IMG/VR virus record: IMGVR_UViG_3300012936_000012
Location: 1-60,895 of that record
DNA from: a virus
Taxonomy: Duplodnaviria > Caudoviricetes
Length of the DNA: 60,895 nucleotides
Direction: 5' to 3' (one strand)
In this document: positions 56,415-60,557 of the stretch, piece by piece
Layout: each line of letters starts with the position of its first letter
Position numbering within the stretch: the stretch's first letter is position 1
The notes under the pieces: model-generated
Databases searched by the model: none
Told to the model about the DNA's origin: nothing
What the model saw: the letters and a program-made list of their open reading frames with translations, nothing else
Translations under genes and position numbers: made by a program

Positions 56415-56465
56415 TTAAACTGAGTTTTGATAACATCAAGTGTACATACAAACAATGGAGGCTGT

Positions 56466-57356
56466 ATGCTTGAGTTAAAAACTATAGAGTGCAGTAAAAA
56501 AACTGTAGATCAACTCCACAGGGTAGGCTCTTTAGATATTGAAGACTATTCTCTTGACCCAAATTCTAATTATTTTCTTTTCAAAGGAGAAGACGGCTCA
56601 TCGGGTATCGCATGTGCAAATGGAGATTACTTAAAACGTGTGAATATGAAAGGTGTCTCTTTTTCTGGAATGAAACCCAAAGATATAACGCAGTCTTGTT
56701 TTTTTCATGCATTGAAAAACTACGATCTTGTTGTTGGATTAGGGGCGGCAGGTACAGGTAAGACCTCGCTTTCTTTAGCATATGCATTGCATCAGCTTTT
56801 TAGAAAAGATATGAATATCGTTTTGTGTAAGCCCACGATTTTTGTGGGGCAGAAAAGTAATGCAATTGGTGCAATACCTGGAGACCACAGAGAAAAACTT
56901 GCAGGATACATTGATTCATATCTAGTTAGCATGAGAAAGATATTGGGAGATTCTGCAGAGCATCATTTATATCAAATGGAAGAAGAAGGAAAACTGCAAT
57001 TTCAACCTTTGGAGTTAATTCGGGGTATGCATTTTGAAGATACAGTTTTGATCATTGATGAAGCACAAAATTGTTCTCCACATGAATTAATGTCAATTAT
57101 TTCTAGGGTTGGTGAAAACTCGACTTGTATTGTCCTAGGAGATCCTTCTCAAATAGATTCTGGTTCTCGATGGAAGGAAACAGGGTTGTTTGTGTTAACA
57201 TGCAGTGATGCTTTTTTTGATAGTGAGTTTTCAATAGGCATCAAGCTTACTGGGCAATACCGGGGGCCGATGGCTACTTTGGCTTCAAATGTATTGAAGG
57301 AGCTACAGGAAGTTGAAGACAGATTTATAGATTCGGATACACTTAATTATGAATGA
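56466..57356 (+). CDS. phoH: PhoH-family ATPase
   Basis: GAAGTGKT, IGAIPG..EK, IRGMHF, IIDEAQN, RVGE, GDPSQID. Confidence 0.9.
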   Translation: MLELKTIECSKKTVDQLHRVGSLDIEDYSLDPNSNYFLFKGEDGSSGIACANGDYLKRVNMKGVSFSGMKPKDITQSCFFHALKNYDLVVGLGAAGTGKTSLSLAYALHQLFRKDMNIVLCKPTIFVGQKSNAIGAIPGDHREKLAGYIDSYLVSMRKILGDSAEHHLYQMEEEGKLQFQPLELIRGMHFEDTVLIIDEAQNCSPHELMSIISRVGENSTCIVLGDPSQIDSGSRWKETGLFVLTCSDAFFDSEFSIGIKLTGQYRGPMATLASNVLKELQEVEDRFIDSDTLNYE

Positions 57357-57537
57357 TAAAATAGGCGAAATTGTTGAAGTGGTATTAGAGGGTAATAGAT
57401 TCCCTGCTGTTATTGTTGGTGTCTTTAAACACACATATGGAGTGCAATGTTTGTTTTATGATAACTATTACTTAATTCCTCATTCCTTTGTATCTTTTGT
57501 CAACATAAATAAACATTATTATGTCCCACACGATTAA
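57349..57537 (+). CDS. Hypothetical small protein
   Basis: 62-aa ORF overlapping the phoH end. Confidence 0.35.
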   Translation: MNDKIGEIVEVVLEGNRFPAVIVGVFKHTYGVQCLFYDNYYLIPHSFVSFVNINKHYYVPHD

Positions 57538-57568
57538 AAGTTGTTGAAAAGACTTTTTTTATTTTTTT
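57536..57568. terminator. Weak candidate bidirectional terminator at the convergence point
   Basis: AAAAGTT-GTTGAAAA-GACTTTT followed by T runs, between convergent operons. Confidence 0.4.
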
Positions 57569-57801
57569 CGATAATGAAGTCCAAGTGCTTCTTTAAGTAT
57601 ATCTTCTTTATCTCTTGATATGTCTATATCAATAAAAAACTCAGAAAGGTTAATTCCAATTTCTGCTGCTTCAACTTGTATTTTTAGTTGTGCAGCAAAA
57701 GGTTGTCTTCCATCATAAATTTTGTTTAAAGAAGACCGAAGATATATCTCTAAATATTCTCCGTTTGTTGCACTAGAAACACTAGGTGTTGCCCAGTTTA
57801 C
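57559..57801 (-). CDS. -1 frame extension (80 codons) of the methyltransferase partner ORF
   Basis: After A10G the -1 frame reads VNWATPSVSSATNGEYLEIYLRSSLNKIYDGRQPFAAQLKIQVEAAEIG...HYRKK*. Confidence 0.6.
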   Translation of the reverse strand, partial: VNWATPSVSSATNGEYLEIYLRSSLNKIYDGRQPFAAQLKIQVEAAEIGINLSEFFIDIDISRDKEDILKEALGLHYRKK

Positions 57802-59474
57802 TTTTTTTTTTCAACTTGTGTTGGTAAATCAGACTCTAACCCCTTCAACGATCTGCCACTTGAGCCTTTGTAATCCCTTGTTTGAGGGGTTGCCCAAGGT
57901 TTTTTGGGGTAGGCTTCTTCGTTGATAACTTGATTATTTATTCCTTGTTGCTTTGAATTTGGACCTCTTTTTTTAAAATCTGAAGCGGTTGGAGTAGCCC
58001 ATCTTTGAGTTTTTTTCTCTTCTATCTCTGCTTCTAATAACAAGTTTGATGATGCTCTTGCTCCTGAGGGCCTATACGCCGGTCCACTTTGATTCCAAAT
58101 CGTTCCATCTGCATTATACAGTTTGTTCGTATTCTCAGAAGGAGTATGAACTCTAGGTGTAGACCAATTTTTTAGCTCTTGTTCACTTGGTACTTTTGCA
58201 GAAGGATTCTGTTGAAAGTAAAAATTTAATTTTTTAGCAACTTCTACTTTATAAGGGTCTACCTGCTCTTGTAAAGTATGAGGAGCAGTCCTACCTCTTC
58301 TACCTCCTCCAGTTAAGTTTTTTATCATTGAGTCAACAGATCTGTTTTCTATTGTTGTCATTGTTGTCGGAGTTGACCAATTGTTTCCACATGATTCTGA
58401 TTGCTTTTGTTGCCGTTCCTGGAACAACTCCATTTCCGAGCATTCTGAGTTCATCTGTTCTATTGTCAGTACGTGTGTACAATTCGGAGATGTCCACCCC
58501 ACAGGTACACCCATCAAGGTCTCCACCCAACGAGGATTCAATCTCCCCACATACGACCCCATGTGAGCTTGATCCGGCAGTAGGTTTCGTGGGTTCTTTT
58601 CTTGACTGTGTTTGGGGTACTTCCCCTTCCAATCCCGACTTGCCGGTGTGGCCCATGACTGTTCTTGGGGGTTCCCACGAGTATTGACCAACTCCTCTTG
58701 CTGCGGGGTAAGCAACCCATCTTTCATTTGGCAAACCTGGTTGTCTAGTCTGAACTGCCACTCCTTCTTGAACTTCCCCTCTTTTGTCAACACGTTCGGC
58801 TCTCCATAATTGCTCATCGTTGATCTCGGAGTCCCCCAAGATAGGTCTGAATCCTCTAGAGAGTTTTGAAGTAATAAAGTCTCTTCCTTGCTTGTTGAGT
58901 CTTGAATTGACACCAAGTATAAAGACTCGTTTTCGTTGATGGGGCGCACCGACTTCACTCGCTGAGAATACGCCTGCCGTTGCTTCGTAACCCAATCTTT
59001 CCAACTCTTTGAGGACATGGTGCAGAACACTTGTTCCTTCTGGGTCAGCCCATGTGTTTCCTTTGAGCTTTGAGCTGATGATTCCTTCAACGTTTTCAAA
59101 GAAAACAATGGGAGGTCTTCCCAACTGTTTGATTCCTTCAACGATGTACGGCCACAGGTGTCTTGGGTCTTCACTTCCATCCCTTCTTCCTGCTTGACTA
59201 AATGGCTGACAAGGGAAGCCTCCACTGAGGATATCCACTTTTCCATTAAAGAGTCCCCAATTGAAGGTTTTAAGATTCGTCCAAATAGGAGCGACATCAA
59301 TCCACCCTTTTTCCATCTTAGCAACCAAGTTTTGGCAGACGAAGGTTTCGATCTCCACATAAGTGACTGTTCGGATAGGCAAGCCAGCTCGTTTAAATCC
59401 GAGGTCAATTCCTCCGTATCCGGAGCAGAGGGAGATATGGGTGAGTTCGGAAGGTTTTTTGGTAATATCCACAT
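57798..59474 (-). CDS. Overlapping-frame C5-MTase partner subunit: motif IX plus six W-x-T-P modules
   Basis: RLNPRWVETLMGVPVGWT; WGTP, WATP, WSTP, WSTP, WATP, WATP repeats. Confidence 0.7.
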   Translation of the reverse strand: MWILPKNLPNSPISPSAPDTEELTSDLNELACLSEQSLMWRSKPSSAKTWLLRWKKGGLMSLLFGRILKPSIGDSLMEKWISSVEASLVSHLVKQEEGMEVKTQDTCGRTSLKESNSWEDLPLFSLKTLKESSAQSSKETHGLTQKEQVFCTMSSKSWKDWVTKQRQAYSQRVKSVRPINENESLYLVSIQDSTSKEETLLLQNSLEDSDLSWGTPRSTMSNYGEPNVLTKEGKFKKEWQFRLDNQVCQMKDGLLTPQQEELVNTRGNPQEQSWATPASRDWKGKYPKHSQEKNPRNLLPDQAHMGSYVGRLNPRWVETLMGVPVGWTSPNCTHVLTIEQMNSECSEMELFQERQQKQSESCGNNWSTPTTMTTIENRSVDSMIKNLTGGGRRGRTAPHTLQEQVDPYKVEVAKKLNFYFQQNPSAKVPSEQELKNWSTPRVHTPSENTNKLYNADGTIWNQSGPAYRPSGARASSNLLLEAEIEEKKTQRWATPTASDFKKRGPNSKQQGINNQVINEEAYPKKPWATPQTRDYKGSSGRSLKGLESDLPTQVEKKK

Positions 59475-59478
59475 TCAT
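58333..59478 (-). CDS. DNA (cytosine-5)-methyltransferase catalytic subunit lacking motif IX
   Basis: SLCSGYGG (I), GGFPCQPFSQAG (IV), ENVEG (VI), PHQRKRVFI (VIII), LRMLGNGVVP (X). Confidence 0.9.
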   Translation of the reverse strand: MNVDITKKPSELTHISLCSGYGGIDLGFKRAGLPIRTVTYVEIETFVCQNLVAKMEKGWIDVAPIWTNLKTFNWGLFNGKVDILSGGFPCQPFSQAGRRDGSEDPRHLWPYIVEGIKQLGRPPIVFFENVEGIISSKLKGNTWADPEGTSVLHHVLKELERLGYEATAGVFSASEVGAPHQRKRVFILGVNSRLNKQGRDFITSKLSRGFRPILGDSEINDEQLWRAERVDKRGEVQEGVAVQTRQPGLPNERWVAYPAARGVGQYSWEPPRTVMGHTGKSGLEGEVPQTQSRKEPTKPTAGSSSHGVVCGEIESSLGGDLDGCTCGVDISELYTRTDNRTDELRMLGNGVVPGTATKAIRIMWKQLVNSDNNDNNRKQIC

Positions 59479-59488
59479 TGTAGTCCTT

Positions 59489-59968
59489 TCATGTAGTTTG
59501 TCTTAAGCGTTTTCTTGCTCTATATAAGCGTACTTTGTACGCAGATTCGGAAACCCCGATTTCTTTTGATGCTTTCTCAGCTTTGATGCCTTTAACAGCA
59601 TTAACAATTACATCTTTATCAAAATCATTAAGTTTATTAAAATTATCTATAACAGTATTAAGTTCGGTTTTGTCAATAAATTTCTTTTCTGGTGTTGAGT
59701 AATCAATTAGTTCTAGGTCGAAAAAGCGTGTTATTTGCTTATCTCTGTACGTATCTCTTCGTAGTTTTTCATTGCATAGGTTTTTTGCTATTTTATATAT
59801 CCAAGTACTTAATTTACACTTTTTTTTAAATTTATGAACATTTGCTAAAGCTAATACAAATACATCCTGTGTAAATTCTTCAGAAGTAAATCGATCATAA
59901 TACGGAGTAAAGATTGCCATGATTTTGTATTTTAGTTTTGGATACAAGGCTTCAATTTCTTTCTTCAC
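59489..59968 (-). CDS. ECF-type RNA polymerase sigma factor
   Basis: EEFTQDVF, LSTWIYKIAKN (region 2); EIGVSESAYKVRLYRARKRLR (region 4). Confidence 0.85.
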   Translation of the reverse strand: MKKEIEALYPKLKYKIMAIFTPYYDRFTSEEFTQDVFVLALANVHKFKKKCKLSTWIYKIAKNLCNEKLRRDTYRDKQITRFFDLELIDYSTPEKKFIDKTELNTVIDNFNKLNDFDKDVIVNAVKGIKAEKASKEIGVSESAYKVRLYRARKRLRQTT

Positions 59969-60557
59969 TTTTTTTTCCTTTTAAGGTTGTTGAAAAGTCT
60001 TTAACTATATTAAGAACACTATCTAAAATATTTTCTTTACTATCTGATCCATTTATCAATACAATTTCAACCCCTTTAGCTCCCATATCCTCAAGAAAAA
60101 GTTCATAGGCTACTTTTTGGCGCAACAGGAAACCATAGTTAACATCTTGATCAATATTTCCACGGGCTTTAACTCGACTCATAGCTTGCTCAGTTTCAAT
60201 ATCAAGAAAGAAGATCACATCAGGCAAAGGAGATGATTCAAGAAAAATTCGGCGTGCCTCTAAATAAAGGTCAAATTCAGAGCAAGAAAGATCACCATAA
60301 GAAAAACCAACTCTAGCAAACACACTATCAGACCAAACACTTCGATCATAAACATTGATCATACCAGGCAAAGAATCCCGCCATTGGTTATACCTAGACT
60401 TCAAAAACTTTATCTGAGTTAAAAACCCATTATCTACTTCACTTTCAAACATAATGGCCTCGTCAAAAACATTAAAATTTTCGGCGCACTGAAGACCTTT
60501 AACTAAACTACTTTTACCAACTCCCATAATCCCTTCCACACATATGCGAATTGTCAT
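59952..60557 (-). CDS. Deoxynucleoside kinase (dNK family)
   Basis: ICVEGIMGVGKSS, DRSVWSD.VF, PDVIFFLD, RVKARG; GGGAG RBS. Confidence 0.85.
   Translation of the reverse strand: MTIRICVEGIMGVGKSSLVKGLQCAENFNVFDEAIMFESEVDNGFLTQIKFLKSRYNQWRDSLPGMINVYDRSVWSDSVFARVGFSYGDLSCSEFDLYLEARRIFLESSPLPDVIFFLDIETEQAMSRVKARGNIDQDVNYGFLLRQKVAYELFLEDMGAKGVEIVLINGSDSKENILDSVLNIVKDFSTTLKGKKSEERN

What the first reader, a model, noticed from the sequence alone, without database searches (positions are those of the whole stretch)
57798..59478. Two-frame DNA methyltransferase: an overprinted partner carries motif IX and an array of candidate target-recognition modules
Seen: two ATGs 4 nt apart (ATGAATGTGG, 59478 and 59474) behind one AGGA RBS open two frames that overlap for about 1.14 kb. 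The 381-aa frame has C5-MTase motifs I, IV, VI, VIII and X but no motif IX. The 558-aa frame has a motif-IX-like segment (RLNPRWVETLMGVPVGWT, about 58490-58545), encoded just ahead of motif X of the other frame. It also has six modules of the form W-[AGS]-T-P...(20-40 aa)...L-x-x-[QE]-[VA] with divergent middles. Known: M.EcoHK31I uses an alternative-frame beta polypeptide to supply motif IX, and multispecific Bacillus phage MTases carry tandem target-recognition domains (TRDs). Inference: this is a heterodimeric, multispecific anti-restriction methylase. Four modules lie mostly beyond the catalytic stop, where they could be added or swapped without disturbing catalysis.
Basis: partly seen in the sequence, partly recalled or inferred. 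Interest (0 to 1): 0.9.

Follow-up and report, generated by a model that had tools for sequence, protein, structure and literature searches.

The report
Two-frame phage cytosine methyltransferase gene
One stretch of phage DNA is read in two overlapping frames that together appear to make the two halves of a DNA cytosine methylase, a layout shared by many uncultured phages and largely missed by annotation.

Summary
On the minus strand, a 381-aa frame (A, 58333-59478) and a 558-aa frame (B, +1, 57798-59474) start 4 nt apart behind one AGGA and overlap for 1142 nt. A has C5-methyltransferase motifs I-VIII and X. B has motif IX and six W-x-T-P modules.

It is not chance. 0 of 5000 synonymous shuffles of A leave B open. 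The design recurs in relatives. Among loci picked by frame A alone, +1 is open over at least 80% of A in 67 of 73, and +2 in 0 of 73.

The wobble position switches along the gene: frame B at codons 1-13, frame A at motifs I-VIII, frame B at motif IX, frame A at motif X. In 5 of 140 relatives motif X sits in the B ORF and A stops early.

A complex model scores ipSAE 0.88 against 0.00 for the best control.

Best reading: a two-subunit methylase. A is the catalytic domain. B is the small domain plus shuffled cassettes.

The closest precedent is M.EcoHK31I. A nested version is already annotated in Paenibacillus phages. Multispecificity and anti-restriction are untested. No expression data exist.

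The parts
59484..59487 (-). Shared Shine-Dalgarno-like AGGA, 5 nt before the frame A ATG and 9 nt before the frame B ATG
   Evidence: Read directly. Purine-rich boxes stand before the paired starts in many relatives.
59472..59478 (-). Paired start codons ATGAATG: frame A ATG at 59476-59478, frame B ATG at 59472-59474. An in-frame-A GTG also overlaps the B ATG (ATGTG).
   Evidence: In 46 of 65 distinct start contexts of relatives the string is ATGTGG (B ATG plus A GTG at +2). Variants are ATGAATGTGG and ATGACATGG.
58333..59478 (-). Frame A, 381 aa: catalytic (large-domain) subunit with motifs I-VIII, a W-P..W-E-P-P-R motif and motif X; no motif IX
   Evidence: Pfam PF00145 E 8.6e-38. PHROG 363 E 1.5e-52 over residues 9-363. 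AF2 pLDDT is high for 11-210 and 345-375 and below 50 for 212-219, 233-253, 273-333 and 337-341. Foldseek finds M.HhaI, M.HaeIII and DNMT1 at E about 1e-12.
57798..59474 (-). Frame B (+1), 558 aa: leader (1-~190, shadow of motifs I-VIII), two modules, motif IX, shadow of motif X, four more modules
   Evidence: 1591 of 5809 candidate proteins match at E<=1e-3, and none of the best 120 has a Pfam domain. 19190 cluster representatives match at E<=1e-3 and 1400 at E<=1e-30.
59448..59474 (-). Frame B N-terminal peptide M-W-I-L-P-K-N-L-P, conserved in the family
   Evidence: Here the B wobble position is the most variable (entropy 0.59/0.40/1.00 bits). The Pro codon is seen as CCA/CCC/CCG/CCT. B1-9 is predicted to touch A48-52 and A64-66 with errors of 0.4-0.6 A.
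59398..59430 (-). Frame A motif I (AdoMet-binding G-x-G loop), residues 17-27
   Evidence: The A wobble position is the most variable here.
59188..59223 (-). Frame A motif IV (P-C-Q, catalytic cysteine), residues 86-97
   Evidence: P89, C90 and Q91 are invariant in 51 sequences.
59083..59103 (-). Frame A motif VI (E-N-V), residues 126-132
58912..58947 (-). Frame A motif VIII (Q-R-K-R), residues 178-189
58734..58838 (-). Frame B module 1 (W-G-T-P..., B213-247), cassette type 7
58663..58722 (-). Frame A motif W-x-x-x-P..W-E-P-P-R (A253-272), a frame-A-selected island between two B modules
   Evidence: E269 and R272 are invariant and P270 and P271 nearly so in 51 sequences. The Pro codons vary at the A wobble position. 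A270-272 is predicted to touch B313-316.
58566..58655 (-). Frame B module 2 (W-A-T-P-A-S-R-D-W-K-G..., B274-303), cassette type 4, just before motif IX
   Evidence: B271-282 lies in the predicted interface.
58491..58544 (-). Frame B motif IX (B311-328). The same bases read in frame A give a non-selected shadow (S-S-L-G-G-D-L-D-G).
   Evidence: PHROG 1008 positions 261-280. The B wobble position is by far the most variable (0.38/0.17/1.23 and 0.56/0.39/1.42 bits). N313, R315, W316, E318, M321, G322, G326 and W327 are invariant in 121 sequences. The segment is predicted to pack on A343-353.
58411..58452 (-). Frame A motif X (L-G-N-G-V-V-P, A343-356)
   Evidence: PHROG 1008 positions 292-322. The A wobble position is the most variable. 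AF2 pLDDT is 92-94.
57813..58379 (-). Frame B modules 3-6 (B366-405, 437-482, 492-526, 527-554), cassette types 1, 8, 9 and 2, mostly beyond frame A's stop (58333-58335)
   Evidence: A contig of run X6 replaces 57498-58423 by 600 other letters.
57802..57811 (-). A10 run, read in frame B as A-AAA-AAG followed by TAA; the frame breaks here
   Evidence: The same run length is seen in contigs of runs X2 and X3 with 0 gaps.
57559..57810 (-). Out-of-phase seventh module plus the family's C-terminal tail (..Q-L-K-I-Q-V-E-A-A-E..), in the -1 phase relative to frame B
   Evidence: It is homologous to the in-frame tails of P0001, P0002, P0007 and P0008, which are cassette type 3. It is out of frame in 1 of 60 genes, the window only.

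Best explanation
The locus encodes a two-subunit C5 cytosine DNA methyltransferase from two same-strand reading frames that overlap completely.

How it is made. Ribosomes loaded at one Shine-Dalgarno site start either at the frame A codon or at the frame B codon 4 nt away. In most relatives the two starts overlap as AUGUG.

Subunits. Frame A gives the catalytic large domain: motifs I-VIII, a W-P..W-E-P-P-R segment and the motif X helix. A long middle stretch of A is only the unselected shadow of frame B. Frame B gives the small-domain parts: motif IX and a variable set of W-x-T-P cassettes. These are preceded by a ~190-residue leader that is the shadow of motifs I-VIII. That leader has nevertheless become constrained and wraps onto subunit A.

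Assembly. The two chains assemble, with B motif IX against A motif X and W-E-P-P-R, and the B N-terminus against A48-66. The result is one enzyme with the layout of M.HhaI-type methylases.

Cassettes. They are the same kind of unit that sits between motifs VIII and IX in single-chain phage relatives. They are most likely the DNA-recognition part. Their number, type and order turn over quickly.

Shown (computationally): both frames are open and under purifying selection in complementary segments, the motifs are complementary, and binding is predicted.

Inferred: both frames are translated, both are needed for activity, and the cassettes set specificity.
For: 1. Open frames beyond chance. The window has 0 stops in frame B against 6.8 expected, and 0 of 5000 shuffles are stop-free. 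The third frame has 25 against 26.0. All 60 preselected genes have 0 stops against a mean of 6.7.

2. Recurrence.
- 79 of 79 IMG/VR loci found with frame B also match frame A, always at offset +1.
- Among loci chosen by frame A alone (best 80 of 580 confirmed), there are 73 distinct genes away from contig ends. Of these, +1 is open over at least 80% of A in 67, +2 in 0, a motif IX pattern is in +1 in 61, and in frame A in 0.
- The design is also present in cultured Phage C75C1 (a 460-aa unannotated +1 ORF) and in Synechococcus phage Yong-M2-251 (372 of 379 codons open).

3. Mosaic selection. The most variable codon position is the B wobble at B1-13, B24-43 and motif IX, and the A wobble at motif I (B14-23), at B44-191 (motifs IV-VIII lie here) and at motif X.

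4. Synonymous sites of A are constrained. Codon identity at identical residues is 0.558 against 0.367 for shuffles over A13-205. It is 0.91 at A3-12, 0.81 under motif IX, and only 0.42 against 0.34 at motif X (0 of 300 shuffles reach any observed value).

5. One profile, two frames. PHROG 1008 positions 261-280 match B and positions 292-322 match A. Single-chain Rita gp76 aligns with A at 5-199 and 358-382, and with B at 334-352.

6. Motif X can sit in either chain. In 5 of 140 distinct genes (L067, L130, L151, L162, L180) the +1 ORF carries IX and X contiguously, and frame A stops 1-19 residues after its W-P..W-E-x-x-R motif. There the A chain lacks motif X altogether.

7. Structure. Alone, A folds confidently only at 11-210 and 345-375.

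8. Complex of A with B1-345.
- ipSAE was 0.88, 0.87 and 0.88; the best of 3 controls scored 0.00.
- The pass mark was reached by 58 of 80 solved complexes and 2 of 110 mismatched pairs.
- The runs agree in at least 65% of contacts, and the partner's pLDDT is at least 65.

9. Paired start codons are conserved (46 of 65 ATGTGG).
Against: - No RNA, ribosome or peptide evidence exists for either frame.
- No methylation assay exists.
- Alone, B is modelled poorly (mean pLDDT 51.7, modules below 50), so the fold and role of the cassettes are unknown.
- The motif IX-motif X contact resembles an intramolecular contact of solved C5 methylases, so part of the complex score may come from memory. The tool's calibration used other alignments than mine.
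- Exceptions exist. Frame B is interrupted in L020 (57 codons) and L063 (130). Frame A is short in L073. L125 and L156 have motif X in a separate ORF. L073 is scrambled. The motif IX pattern was not found in 18 of 140 genes and motif X in 3.
- The shuffle and codon-identity controls do not remove shared ancestry.
- Stop avoidance alone adds some site-specific codon constraint.
- Four of six cassettes lie after motif IX, which is not where TRDs sit in known enzymes.
Confidence: 0.72

Rival explanations
1. Frame A is a complete, active methylase on its own. Frame B is translated and binds it, but only modulates it (stability, DNA affinity, processivity, timing) or does something unrelated with its cassettes. 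The cassettes are not target-recognition domains.
For: Frame A matches PHROG 363 nearly end to end (residues 9-363). It keeps a conserved W-P..W-E-P-P-R segment of its own. Four of six cassettes lie after motif IX. Some relatives show no W-x-[TS]-P cassette by my pattern (L015, L054, L070). The fold of the cassettes is not resolved.
Against: A has no motif IX in any of the 73 genes chosen by frame A. Its 212-341 stretch is mostly modelled as unfolded. Motif IX in B is the most strongly B-selected segment. In 5 of 140 genes A also lacks motif X. In the single-chain relative Rita gp76, cassettes of the same kind occupy the stretch between motifs VIII and IX.
Confidence: 0.17
2. A single-chain methylase is made by programmed ribosomal frameshifting between the frames (A to B after motif VIII or after W-E-P-P-R, then back to A before motif X). 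The long open frames are by-products.
For: The order of selected segments (A: I-VIII; B: cassettes and IX; A: X) is the order found in a normal single chain. In the five variants a single +1 shift near frame A's stop would give a canonical chain. The window has a C5 run at the W-E-P-P-R codons and A-rich runs at codons 6-8.
Against: The window type would need up to four shifts: A, B module 1, A W-E-P-P-R, B module 2 plus IX, A motif X. No conserved slippery site was found. A C run of 5 is present in 6 of 80 distinct W-E-x-P-R contexts, and the Pro codons vary freely. The A-AAA-AAC string at codons 6-8 is not conserved. Frameshifting does not explain why frame B is open from a conserved ATG, nor why B codons 1-13 show B-frame selection.
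Confidence: 0.07
3. Frame B is a non-functional shadow ORF, kept open by codon usage or composition, or an artefact of sequencing errors in a normal single-frame gene.
For: Alternative frames can stay open in G+C-rich genes. The +1 frame of high-GC actinophage methylase genes is open for 153-267 codons. B alone is modelled poorly.
Against: The window gene is 47% G+C and expects 6.8 stops (0 of 5000 shuffles open), while the third frame behaves as expected. Motif IX shows B-frame wobble variation. The same offset is seen in 79 of 79 and in 67 of 73 independent loci, and in cultured phage genomes. Contigs of other runs reproduce the region.
Confidence: 0.03

Closest known systems
M.EcoHK31I (alpha/beta C5 methyltransferase of E. 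coli HK31; passages read in PMC2836561 and PMC3404938; the original paper PMC306636 is not held)
   Same: It is a C5 methylase made of two polypeptides. The second is encoded in another reading frame of the first one's gene, and it supplies motif IX. Alpha has motifs I-VIII and X.
   Different: - There, beta is small and lies wholly inside alpha, and alpha holds the predicted TRD.
- Here, the second frame starts at the same ribosome site, spans the whole catalytic gene, runs 535 nt beyond it, and is larger than the catalytic chain.
- Here, the second frame also carries the cassette array, and its leader is predicted to bind the catalytic chain.
- M.EcoHK31I belongs to a restriction-modification system. 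This gene sits between a sigma factor gene and a convergent PhoH gene in a phage.
- Sequence relatedness to M.EcoHK31I was not tested (no sequence at hand).
Nested gene pair of Paenibacillus larvae phages (e.g. phage Bloom BLOOM_56 / BLOOM_57, MH454077)
   Same: A frame-A methylase (I-VIII, linker, W-P..W-E-P, X) holds a +1 ORF with three W-x-T-P cassettes and Q-L-N-P-D-W-V-E-C-L-M-G-F-P-I-G-W. Both are annotated 'DNA cytosine methyltransferase' in several records.
   Different: There the +1 ORF starts internally, 202 nt into the gene. The +1 frame has 13 stops in all across the gene; those upstream of the nested ORF close it. The ORF ends right after motif IX. I saw no discussion of the overlap in the passages read of PMC6070908 and PMC5056774; the supplements are closed.
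Single-chain phage C5 methylases of PHROG 1008 type, e.g. Mycobacterium phage Rita gp76 (OP068340)
   Same: They have the same catalytic motifs, the same kind of cassette (L-L-P-T-P-x-A-x-D-G, three copies) between motifs VIII and IX, and the same motif IX (R-L-A-P-A-F-S-E-W-M-M-G-W-P-A-G-W) and motif X.
   Different: Everything is in one frame and one chain.
M.AquI (two-subunit C5 methylase; passage in PMC3404938)
   Same: It is split in the variable region. The large subunit has I-VIII and the small one has the distal variable region plus IX-X. This is the motif distribution of the five variant relatives L067, L130, L151, L162 and L180.
   Different: As described there, the M.AquI subunits follow one another along the enzyme's sequence. 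Here the second chain's gene overlaps the whole first gene in the +1 frame.
Multispecific Bacillus phage methylases
   Same: They are phage C5 methylases with several short tandem recognition units, and the units differ between phages.
   Different: They are single polypeptides with all TRDs between motifs VIII and IX. No Bacillus phage record was among the 1 record (full B) or the 76 records (B268-335) found by tblastn.

Membership tests
C5 cytosine DNA methyltransferase (Pfam PF00145) | Motifs I, IV (P-C-Q catalytic Cys), VI (E-N-V) and VIII (Q-x-R-x-R) in one chain | tested here: met
   Frame A scores E 8.6e-38 over residues 13-205. Motifs were placed, and P-C-Q and E-N-V are invariant in 51 relatives.
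C5 cytosine DNA methyltransferase (Pfam PF00145) | Motif IX in the same chain, between the variable region and motif X | tested here: not met
   It is absent from frame A and present in frame B at 310-329, matching PHROG 1008 positions 261-280. It is in frame A in 0 of 73 relatives and in +1 in 61 of 73.
C5 cytosine DNA methyltransferase (Pfam PF00145) | Motif X (G-N-x-V helix) closing the large domain | tested here: met
   Frame A 338-368 matches PHROG 1008 positions 292-322. pLDDT is 92-94.
C5 cytosine DNA methyltransferase (Pfam PF00145) | Large-domain fold like M.HhaI / M.HaeIII | tested here: met
   Foldseek finds 2i9k, 3ubt and 1dct at E about 4e-12 over 185 columns.
C5 cytosine DNA methyltransferase (Pfam PF00145) | Methylates cytosine C5 in DNA | not testable with these tools
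   No assay was possible.
M.EcoHK31I-type two-polypeptide methylase | Second polypeptide encoded in another frame of the catalytic gene | tested here: met
   Here the overlap covers the whole catalytic gene.
M.EcoHK31I-type two-polypeptide methylase | Second polypeptide supplies motif IX | tested here: met
M.EcoHK31I-type two-polypeptide methylase | Catalytic polypeptide holds the TRD | tested here: inconclusive
   Most of A212-341 is modelled below pLDDT 50. The cassettes that fill the TRD position in Rita gp76 lie in frame B. The TRD itself is not identified.
M.EcoHK31I-type two-polypeptide methylase | Both polypeptides needed for activity; they associate | not testable with these tools
   There is only a model: ipSAE 0.88 against 0.00 for the best of 3 controls.
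M.EcoHK31I-type two-polypeptide methylase | Partner of a restriction endonuclease | tested here: not met
   The flanking genes are a thymidylate kinase, a sigma factor and a convergent PhoH. Only the near neighbours were scanned.
M.EcoHK31I-type two-polypeptide methylase | Sequence homology to M.EcoHK31I alpha and beta | not tested
   No sequence of it was available from any tool.
Multispecific phage C5 methylases (SPR group; definition recalled) | Single chain with all TRDs in tandem between motifs VIII and IX | tested here: not met
   There are two chains. Two of the six cassettes lie before motif IX and four after it.
Multispecific phage C5 methylases (SPR group; definition recalled) | Each unit confers one target sequence | not testable with these tools
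   Indirect evidence only. There are about 12 recurrent cassette types and 136 architectures in 173 proteins. Same-type repeats number 29 against 57.8 +- 6.2 expected.
Multispecific phage C5 methylases (SPR group; definition recalled) | Sequence similarity to the Bacillus phage enzymes | tested here: not met
   No Bacillus phage record was among the hits.
De novo overprinted gene | The new frame has no homologue outside the overlap | tested here: not met
   B's motif IX and cassettes match in-frame parts of single-chain enzymes. Only the ~190-residue leader fits overprinting.
Programmed-frameshift gene | Conserved slippery site at the frame junction | tested here: not met
   A C run of 5 is present in 6 of 80 W-E-x-P-R contexts. 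The A-rich heptamer at codons 6-8 is not conserved.

The most novel reading that the evidence does not exclude
Two chains are read in full from one start site and then assemble. Any segment can therefore hop from one frame to the other by an indel without being lost to the enzyme. Candidates for such hops: motif X sits in either frame in relatives, and cassettes sit before or after motif IX. On this reading the W-x-T-P cassettes are interchangeable target-recognition units that dock one at a time beside motif IX on the catalytic chain. One phage enzyme would then methylate several motifs, and its repertoire could be re-dealt 3' of the catalytic stop without touching catalysis. That would make this a fast-evolving counter to restriction systems. 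It would also be the largest well-supported family of long same-strand overlapping genes in phages.
Probability: 0.3. Interest if true: 0.9.

Novelty: new variant of a known kind. Interest (0 to 1): 0.82.

Why it matters
- Overlapping genes. Long same-strand overlaps of more than 1 kb in which both frames are selected are rare and often disputed in phages and bacteria. This family offers hundreds of independent sequences with a clear mosaic selection signal.
- Annotation. Gene callers keep one frame or the other. Frame B products are called 'hypothetical' where they are named at all. In Phage C75C1 the +1 ORF is not annotated. In a Bacteroides element the junk frame was annotated instead.
- Enzymology. 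It would raise M.EcoHK31I from a curiosity to one example of a broad class of natural split methylases. Such enzymes are of practical interest for targeted methylation, the use made of M.EcoHK31I in PMC2836561.
- Phage-host conflict. If the cassettes set specificity, this is a cassette system for methylation targets.

Tried and rejected
Negative or uninformative results:
- Pfam on frame B: nothing at E<=1.
- PDB sequence search with the frame B profile: only two chance hits at E about 1.4.
- ESM Atlas with B200-558: no usable hit by features, and TM at most 0.25 by structure.
- AF2 of B alone: mean pLDDT 51.7, so no fold search was run on it.
- tblastn of full B against cultured phages: 1 record only. 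The B268-335 core found 76 phage and 4 plasmid records.
- Burkholderia phage Milagro, a classical R-M methylase, served as a negative example: 8 stops in +1.
- Expression: no RNA holder was listed for the stretch. The runs laid are contigs, which cannot show expression.
- Complex prediction gives support only, not proof.

A10 run as a programmed -1 site:
- The hairpin 3 nt after the stop is weak (z -2.14).
- The out-of-frame tail is seen in 1 of 60 genes.
- I leave it as an observation.

Literature. Six searches found the M.EcoHK31I and M.AquI precedents and the P. larvae phage papers. None found a description of a whole-gene two-frame methylase family. PMC8788219 holds none of the words methyltransferase, methylase or cytosine. 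This is no proof that the family is unpublished. Subscription journals and REBASE are not searched, and supplements are closed; those of PMC6070908 and PMC5056774 may list gene overlaps.

Rows dropped before counts:
- Searches used 60 distinct genes, after dropping duplicates, contig-end cases (L038, L039, L056) and genes with either frame under 300 codons (L020, L063, L067, L073). The '0 stops in all 60' is therefore partly by selection.
- One search kept 50 genes with a start codon near the B ATG.
- One search used 21 sequences under 60% identity.
- One search dropped 6 contig-end genes out of 79.
- In one search, 53 loci had no W-E-x-P-R by my pattern (counted before removing duplicates).
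- In one search, one 'module' type is the G-W-T-S-P inside motif IX. It was removed.

Full report
**What is there**

The window is an IMG/VR virus record of 60,895 bases, estimated 63% complete. It carries tail, ribonucleotide reductase, PhoH, sigma factor and thymidylate kinase genes.

On the minus strand, directly after the sigma factor gene's stop (59489-59491), stands AAAGGA-CTACA-ATGAATGTGG. The first ATG (59476-59478) opens frame A: 381 aa, ending at 58333. The second ATG (59472-59474) opens frame B, offset +1: 558 aa, ending at 57798. They share 1142 nt.

Frame A matches Pfam PF00145 (E 8.6e-38, residues 13-205) and PHROG 363 (E 1.5e-52, residues 9-363). Frame B matches no Pfam family.

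Frame B residues 310-329 match positions 261-280 of PHROG 1008. Frame A residues 338-368 match positions 292-322 of the same profile. So motifs IX and X of one ordinary methylase profile are divided between the two frames, 10-20 codons apart.

**Is it chance?**

No. Holding frame A's protein and codon usage fixed and permuting synonymous codons gives 6.8 stops in frame B on average. None of 5000 permutations is stop-free. The third frame has 25 stops, as expected (26.0). Holding B fixed, frame A would collect 18.8 stops.

**Relatives**

tblastn of frame B against cultured phages hit one record, Phage C75C1. The hit lay in the +1 frame of that phage's annotated methylase. That gene holds an unannotated 460-aa +1 ORF with the same start peptide, W-x-T-P modules and motif IX.

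Synechococcus phage Yong-M2-251 has the same design at much higher G+C.

In the protein collections frame B is a large unnamed family:
- 1591 of 5809 candidates match at E<=1e-3, and none of the best 120 has a Pfam domain.
- With a 121-sequence profile, 19,190 cluster representatives match at E<=1e-3, 5,976 at E<=1e-10 and 1,400 at E<=1e-30. The weak end of that list may include single-chain enzymes matched only at cassettes or motif IX.
- Where sources give a name, it is 'hypothetical protein'.

In IMG/VR, 520 of 597 pattern matches were confirmed. In all 79 loci kept, both frames match at offset +1. Frame B is open for at least 300 codons in 76 of 79; the exceptions are L020, L063 and L056, the last at a contig end.

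That set was chosen by frame B, so I repeated the search with frame A alone. This gave 580 of 585 confirmed, the best 80 kept, and 73 distinct genes away from contig ends:
- +1 is open over at least 80% of frame A in 67 of 73.
- +2 is open to that extent in 0 of 73.
- A motif IX pattern is in +1 in 61 of 73, and in frame A in 0 of 73.

Fourteen loci were also found in prokaryote genome assemblies. Most are metagenome bins of many phyla; one is the isolate Geminisphaera colitermitum TAV2.

**Which frame is selected where**

On a codon alignment of 60 distinct genes (281 usable columns), the most variable codon position switches along the gene:

| Frame B residues | Segment | Most variable position |
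|---|---|---|
| 1-13 | B N-terminus | B wobble (entropy 0.59/0.40/1.00 bits) |
| 14-23 | motif I of A | A wobble |
| 24-43 | B leader | B wobble, weakly |
| 44-191 | A motifs IV-VIII | A wobble |
| 192-311 | variable region | all positions variable |
| 312-331 | motif IX of B | B wobble, strongly (0.38/0.17/1.23 and 0.56/0.39/1.42) |
| 332-362 | motif X of A | A wobble |

The frame A alignment adds a further A-selected island, W-P..W-E-P-P-R, between two B modules.

Frame A's synonymous sites are not free. I used 21 sequences under 60% identical. At columns with identical A residues, the fraction of identical codons is shown below. No shuffle of 300 reaches any observed value.

| Frame A residues | Observed | Shuffled |
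|---|---|---|
| 13-205 | 0.558 | 0.367 |
| 3-12 | 0.91 | 0.41 |
| 31-60 | 0.70 | 0.38 |
| 310-335 (under motif IX) | 0.81 | 0.36 |
| 336-370 (motif X) | 0.42 | 0.34 |

Shared ancestry and stop avoidance contribute to these excesses. The contrast between segments is the informative part.

**Start codons**

In 46 of 65 distinct start contexts the string is ATGTGG. That is the B ATG with an in-frame-A GTG two bases later, often the only possible A start. Other forms are ATGAATGTGG (the window, L005, L011, L046) and ATGACATGG. The Pro codon of the B peptide M-W-I-[IL]-P-K occurs as CCA, CCC, CCG and CCT. These changes are silent in B and non-silent in A.

**Structure**

Frame A alone, with a 51-row alignment, is confident at 11-210 and 345-375. 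It is below pLDDT 50 at 212-219, 233-253, 273-333 and 337-341. The confident part resembles M.HhaI, M.HaeIII and DNMT1 (E about 1e-12).

Frame B alone, with 121 rows, is poor (mean 51.7). It has confident helices at 21-60 and 150-180, motif IX at about 71, and 405-440 at about 91. The modules are not resolved.

The complex of A with B1-345 scored ipSAE 0.88, 0.87 and 0.88 against 0.00 for the best of 3 controls. The pass mark was reached by 58 of 80 solved complexes and by 2 of 110 mismatched pairs. The runs agree in at least 65% of contacts, and the partner's pLDDT is at least 65.

The best-defined contacts are:
- B2-4 with A48-52 and A64-66;
- B313-328 (motif IX) with A343-353 (motif X) and A270-272 (E-P-P-R).

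The IX-X contact mirrors an intramolecular contact of solved methylases and may be recalled by the model. The leader contacts have no such precedent. They coincide with the segments that show B-frame selection.

**Two chains or frameshifting?**

The order of selected segments is that of a normal single chain, so frameshifting must be considered.
- The window type would need up to four shifts.
- No slippery site is conserved at the W-E-P-P-R junction: a C run of 5 occurs in 6 of 80 contexts. Nor is one conserved at codons 6-8.
- Frameshifting explains neither the conserved B start nor the open, constrained B leader.

The strongest argument comes from variants. I classified 140 distinct genes:

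| Class | Genes |
|---|---|
| Window type | 105 |
| IX in +1 and X in A, but B not open back to the start | 3 (plus 2 at contig ends) |
| Window type, at a contig end | 1 |
| X in a separate ORF (L125, L156) | 2 |
| Scrambled (L073) | 1 |
| Motifs IX and X contiguous in the +1 ORF (L067, L130, L151, L162, L180) | 5 |
| Motif IX pattern not found | 18 |
| Motif X pattern not found | 3 |

In the five variant genes frame A stops 1-19 residues after W-P..W-E-x-x-R. Those A chains lack motif X, so the B chain is needed if the enzyme works at all. I note that these five could also be read through with a single +1 shift.

**Origin**

Mycobacterium phage Rita gp76 has motifs I-VIII, three L-L-P-T-P cassettes, motif IX and motif X in one frame. 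Frame A aligns to its residues 5-199 (E 5e-33) and 358-382 (E 2e-5). Frame B aligns to 334-352 (E 0.018) and weakly to the cassettes. So frame B's core is a displaced piece of an ordinary methylase. Only its leader is overprinted.

**Cassettes**

I cut 555 W-x-[TS]-P segments from 173 distinct B proteins. They fall into about 12 recurrent types, and there are 136 different architectures.

Most types occur both before and after motif IX (type 0: 40 before, 28 after; type 1: 48 and 16). The tail type is always last (0 and 54). The window carries six different types.

Same-type repeats within a protein are half as frequent as under random dealing: 29 against 57.8 +- 6.2, with 0 of 2000 shuffles as low. 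Relatedness was not controlled.

Cassettes turn over between close relatives:
- L005 (frame A 89% identical) lacks four of the window's cassettes.
- A contig of run X6 replaces 57498-58423 by 600 other letters.

This fits independent, non-redundant functional units. It does not show what they recognise.

**Known or new**

M.EcoHK31I is the precedent: beta, with motif IX, is encoded in another frame inside alpha. M.AquI is a sequential split.

Paenibacillus larvae phages carry a nested +1 ORF with cassettes and motif IX. Several GenBank records annotate it as a second cytosine methyltransferase. The passages I read in the two comparative papers list the genes without comment on the overlap.

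Six literature searches found no description of the whole-gene, paired-start, family-wide design. I therefore rate it a new variant of a known kind.

**Verdict**

The heterodimer reading is well supported by sequence evolution and modelling, but untested at the bench. Multispecific anti-restriction remains a reasonable conjecture.

Noticed in passing
window 57559-57811 (minus strand): Frame B ends at an A10 run read A-AAA-AAG then TAA. A seventh W-A-T-P module and the family's usual C-terminal tail continue in the -1 phase. Contigs of two other runs (X2, X3) carry the same run length. Of 60 genes, only the window has its tail out of frame. A hairpin (-16.8 kcal/mol, z -2.14) starts 3 nt after the stop. 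This could be a -1 slippage site, transcriptional slippage, or a recent truncating mutation.
   Followed up: partly
window 57498-58423: A 4670-nt contig of run X6 matches the methylase part (50 differences over 58424-59600) but replaces this 926-nt block by 600 other letters. The block holds the cassettes beyond frame A's stop.
   Followed up: partly
L067, L130, L151, L162, L180 (IMG/VR loci): Variant layout: frame A stops 1-19 residues after W-P..W-E-x-x-R, and the +1 ORF carries motifs IX and X contiguously. The catalytic chain therefore lacks motif X.
   Followed up: yes
L003 (Gordonia phage CheeseTouch gp88) and L098 (Mycobacterium phage Rita gp76): These methylases have motifs IX and X in frame 0; Rita gp76 also carries three cassettes in frame. 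Both also carry L-P-T-P-T-A-type cassettes in the +1 frame after motif VIII (open for 267 and 153 codons). One CheeseTouch +1 cassette resembles a frame-0 cassette of Rita. Both genes are high in G+C. Whether these are relics or translated is open.
   Followed up: no
L101 979-2040 (Bacteroides finegoldii plasmid NZ_OY725938): A 353-codon +1 ORF with L-L-P-T-P cassettes and motif IX overlies a frame-A methylase broken by a stop at 1491-1493. I saw no motif X by eye in the listed translations. The record annotates the frame-A remnant as a hypothetical protein, not the +1 ORF.
   Followed up: partly
L156 and L125: Frame A is interrupted by stops in the cassette region (L156) or between motifs IV and VI (L125). 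Frame B stays open, and motif X then lies in a separate downstream frame-A ORF.
   Followed up: no
window 59489-60557 (minus strand): The methylase pair is the last gene of a run of three: thymidylate kinase-like (59952-60557), sigma factor-like (59489-59968), then the methylase. It is convergent with a PhoH-like gene (56427-57356, plus strand).
   Followed up: no
many relatives, e.g. L041, L042, L069, L071, L077, L079, L082, L083: Short B forms end at a TAG or TGA created inside frame A's G-N-G-V-V-P codons (GGA GTA GTx). The window uses GTT there, which keeps frame B open into the extra cassettes.
   Followed up: partly
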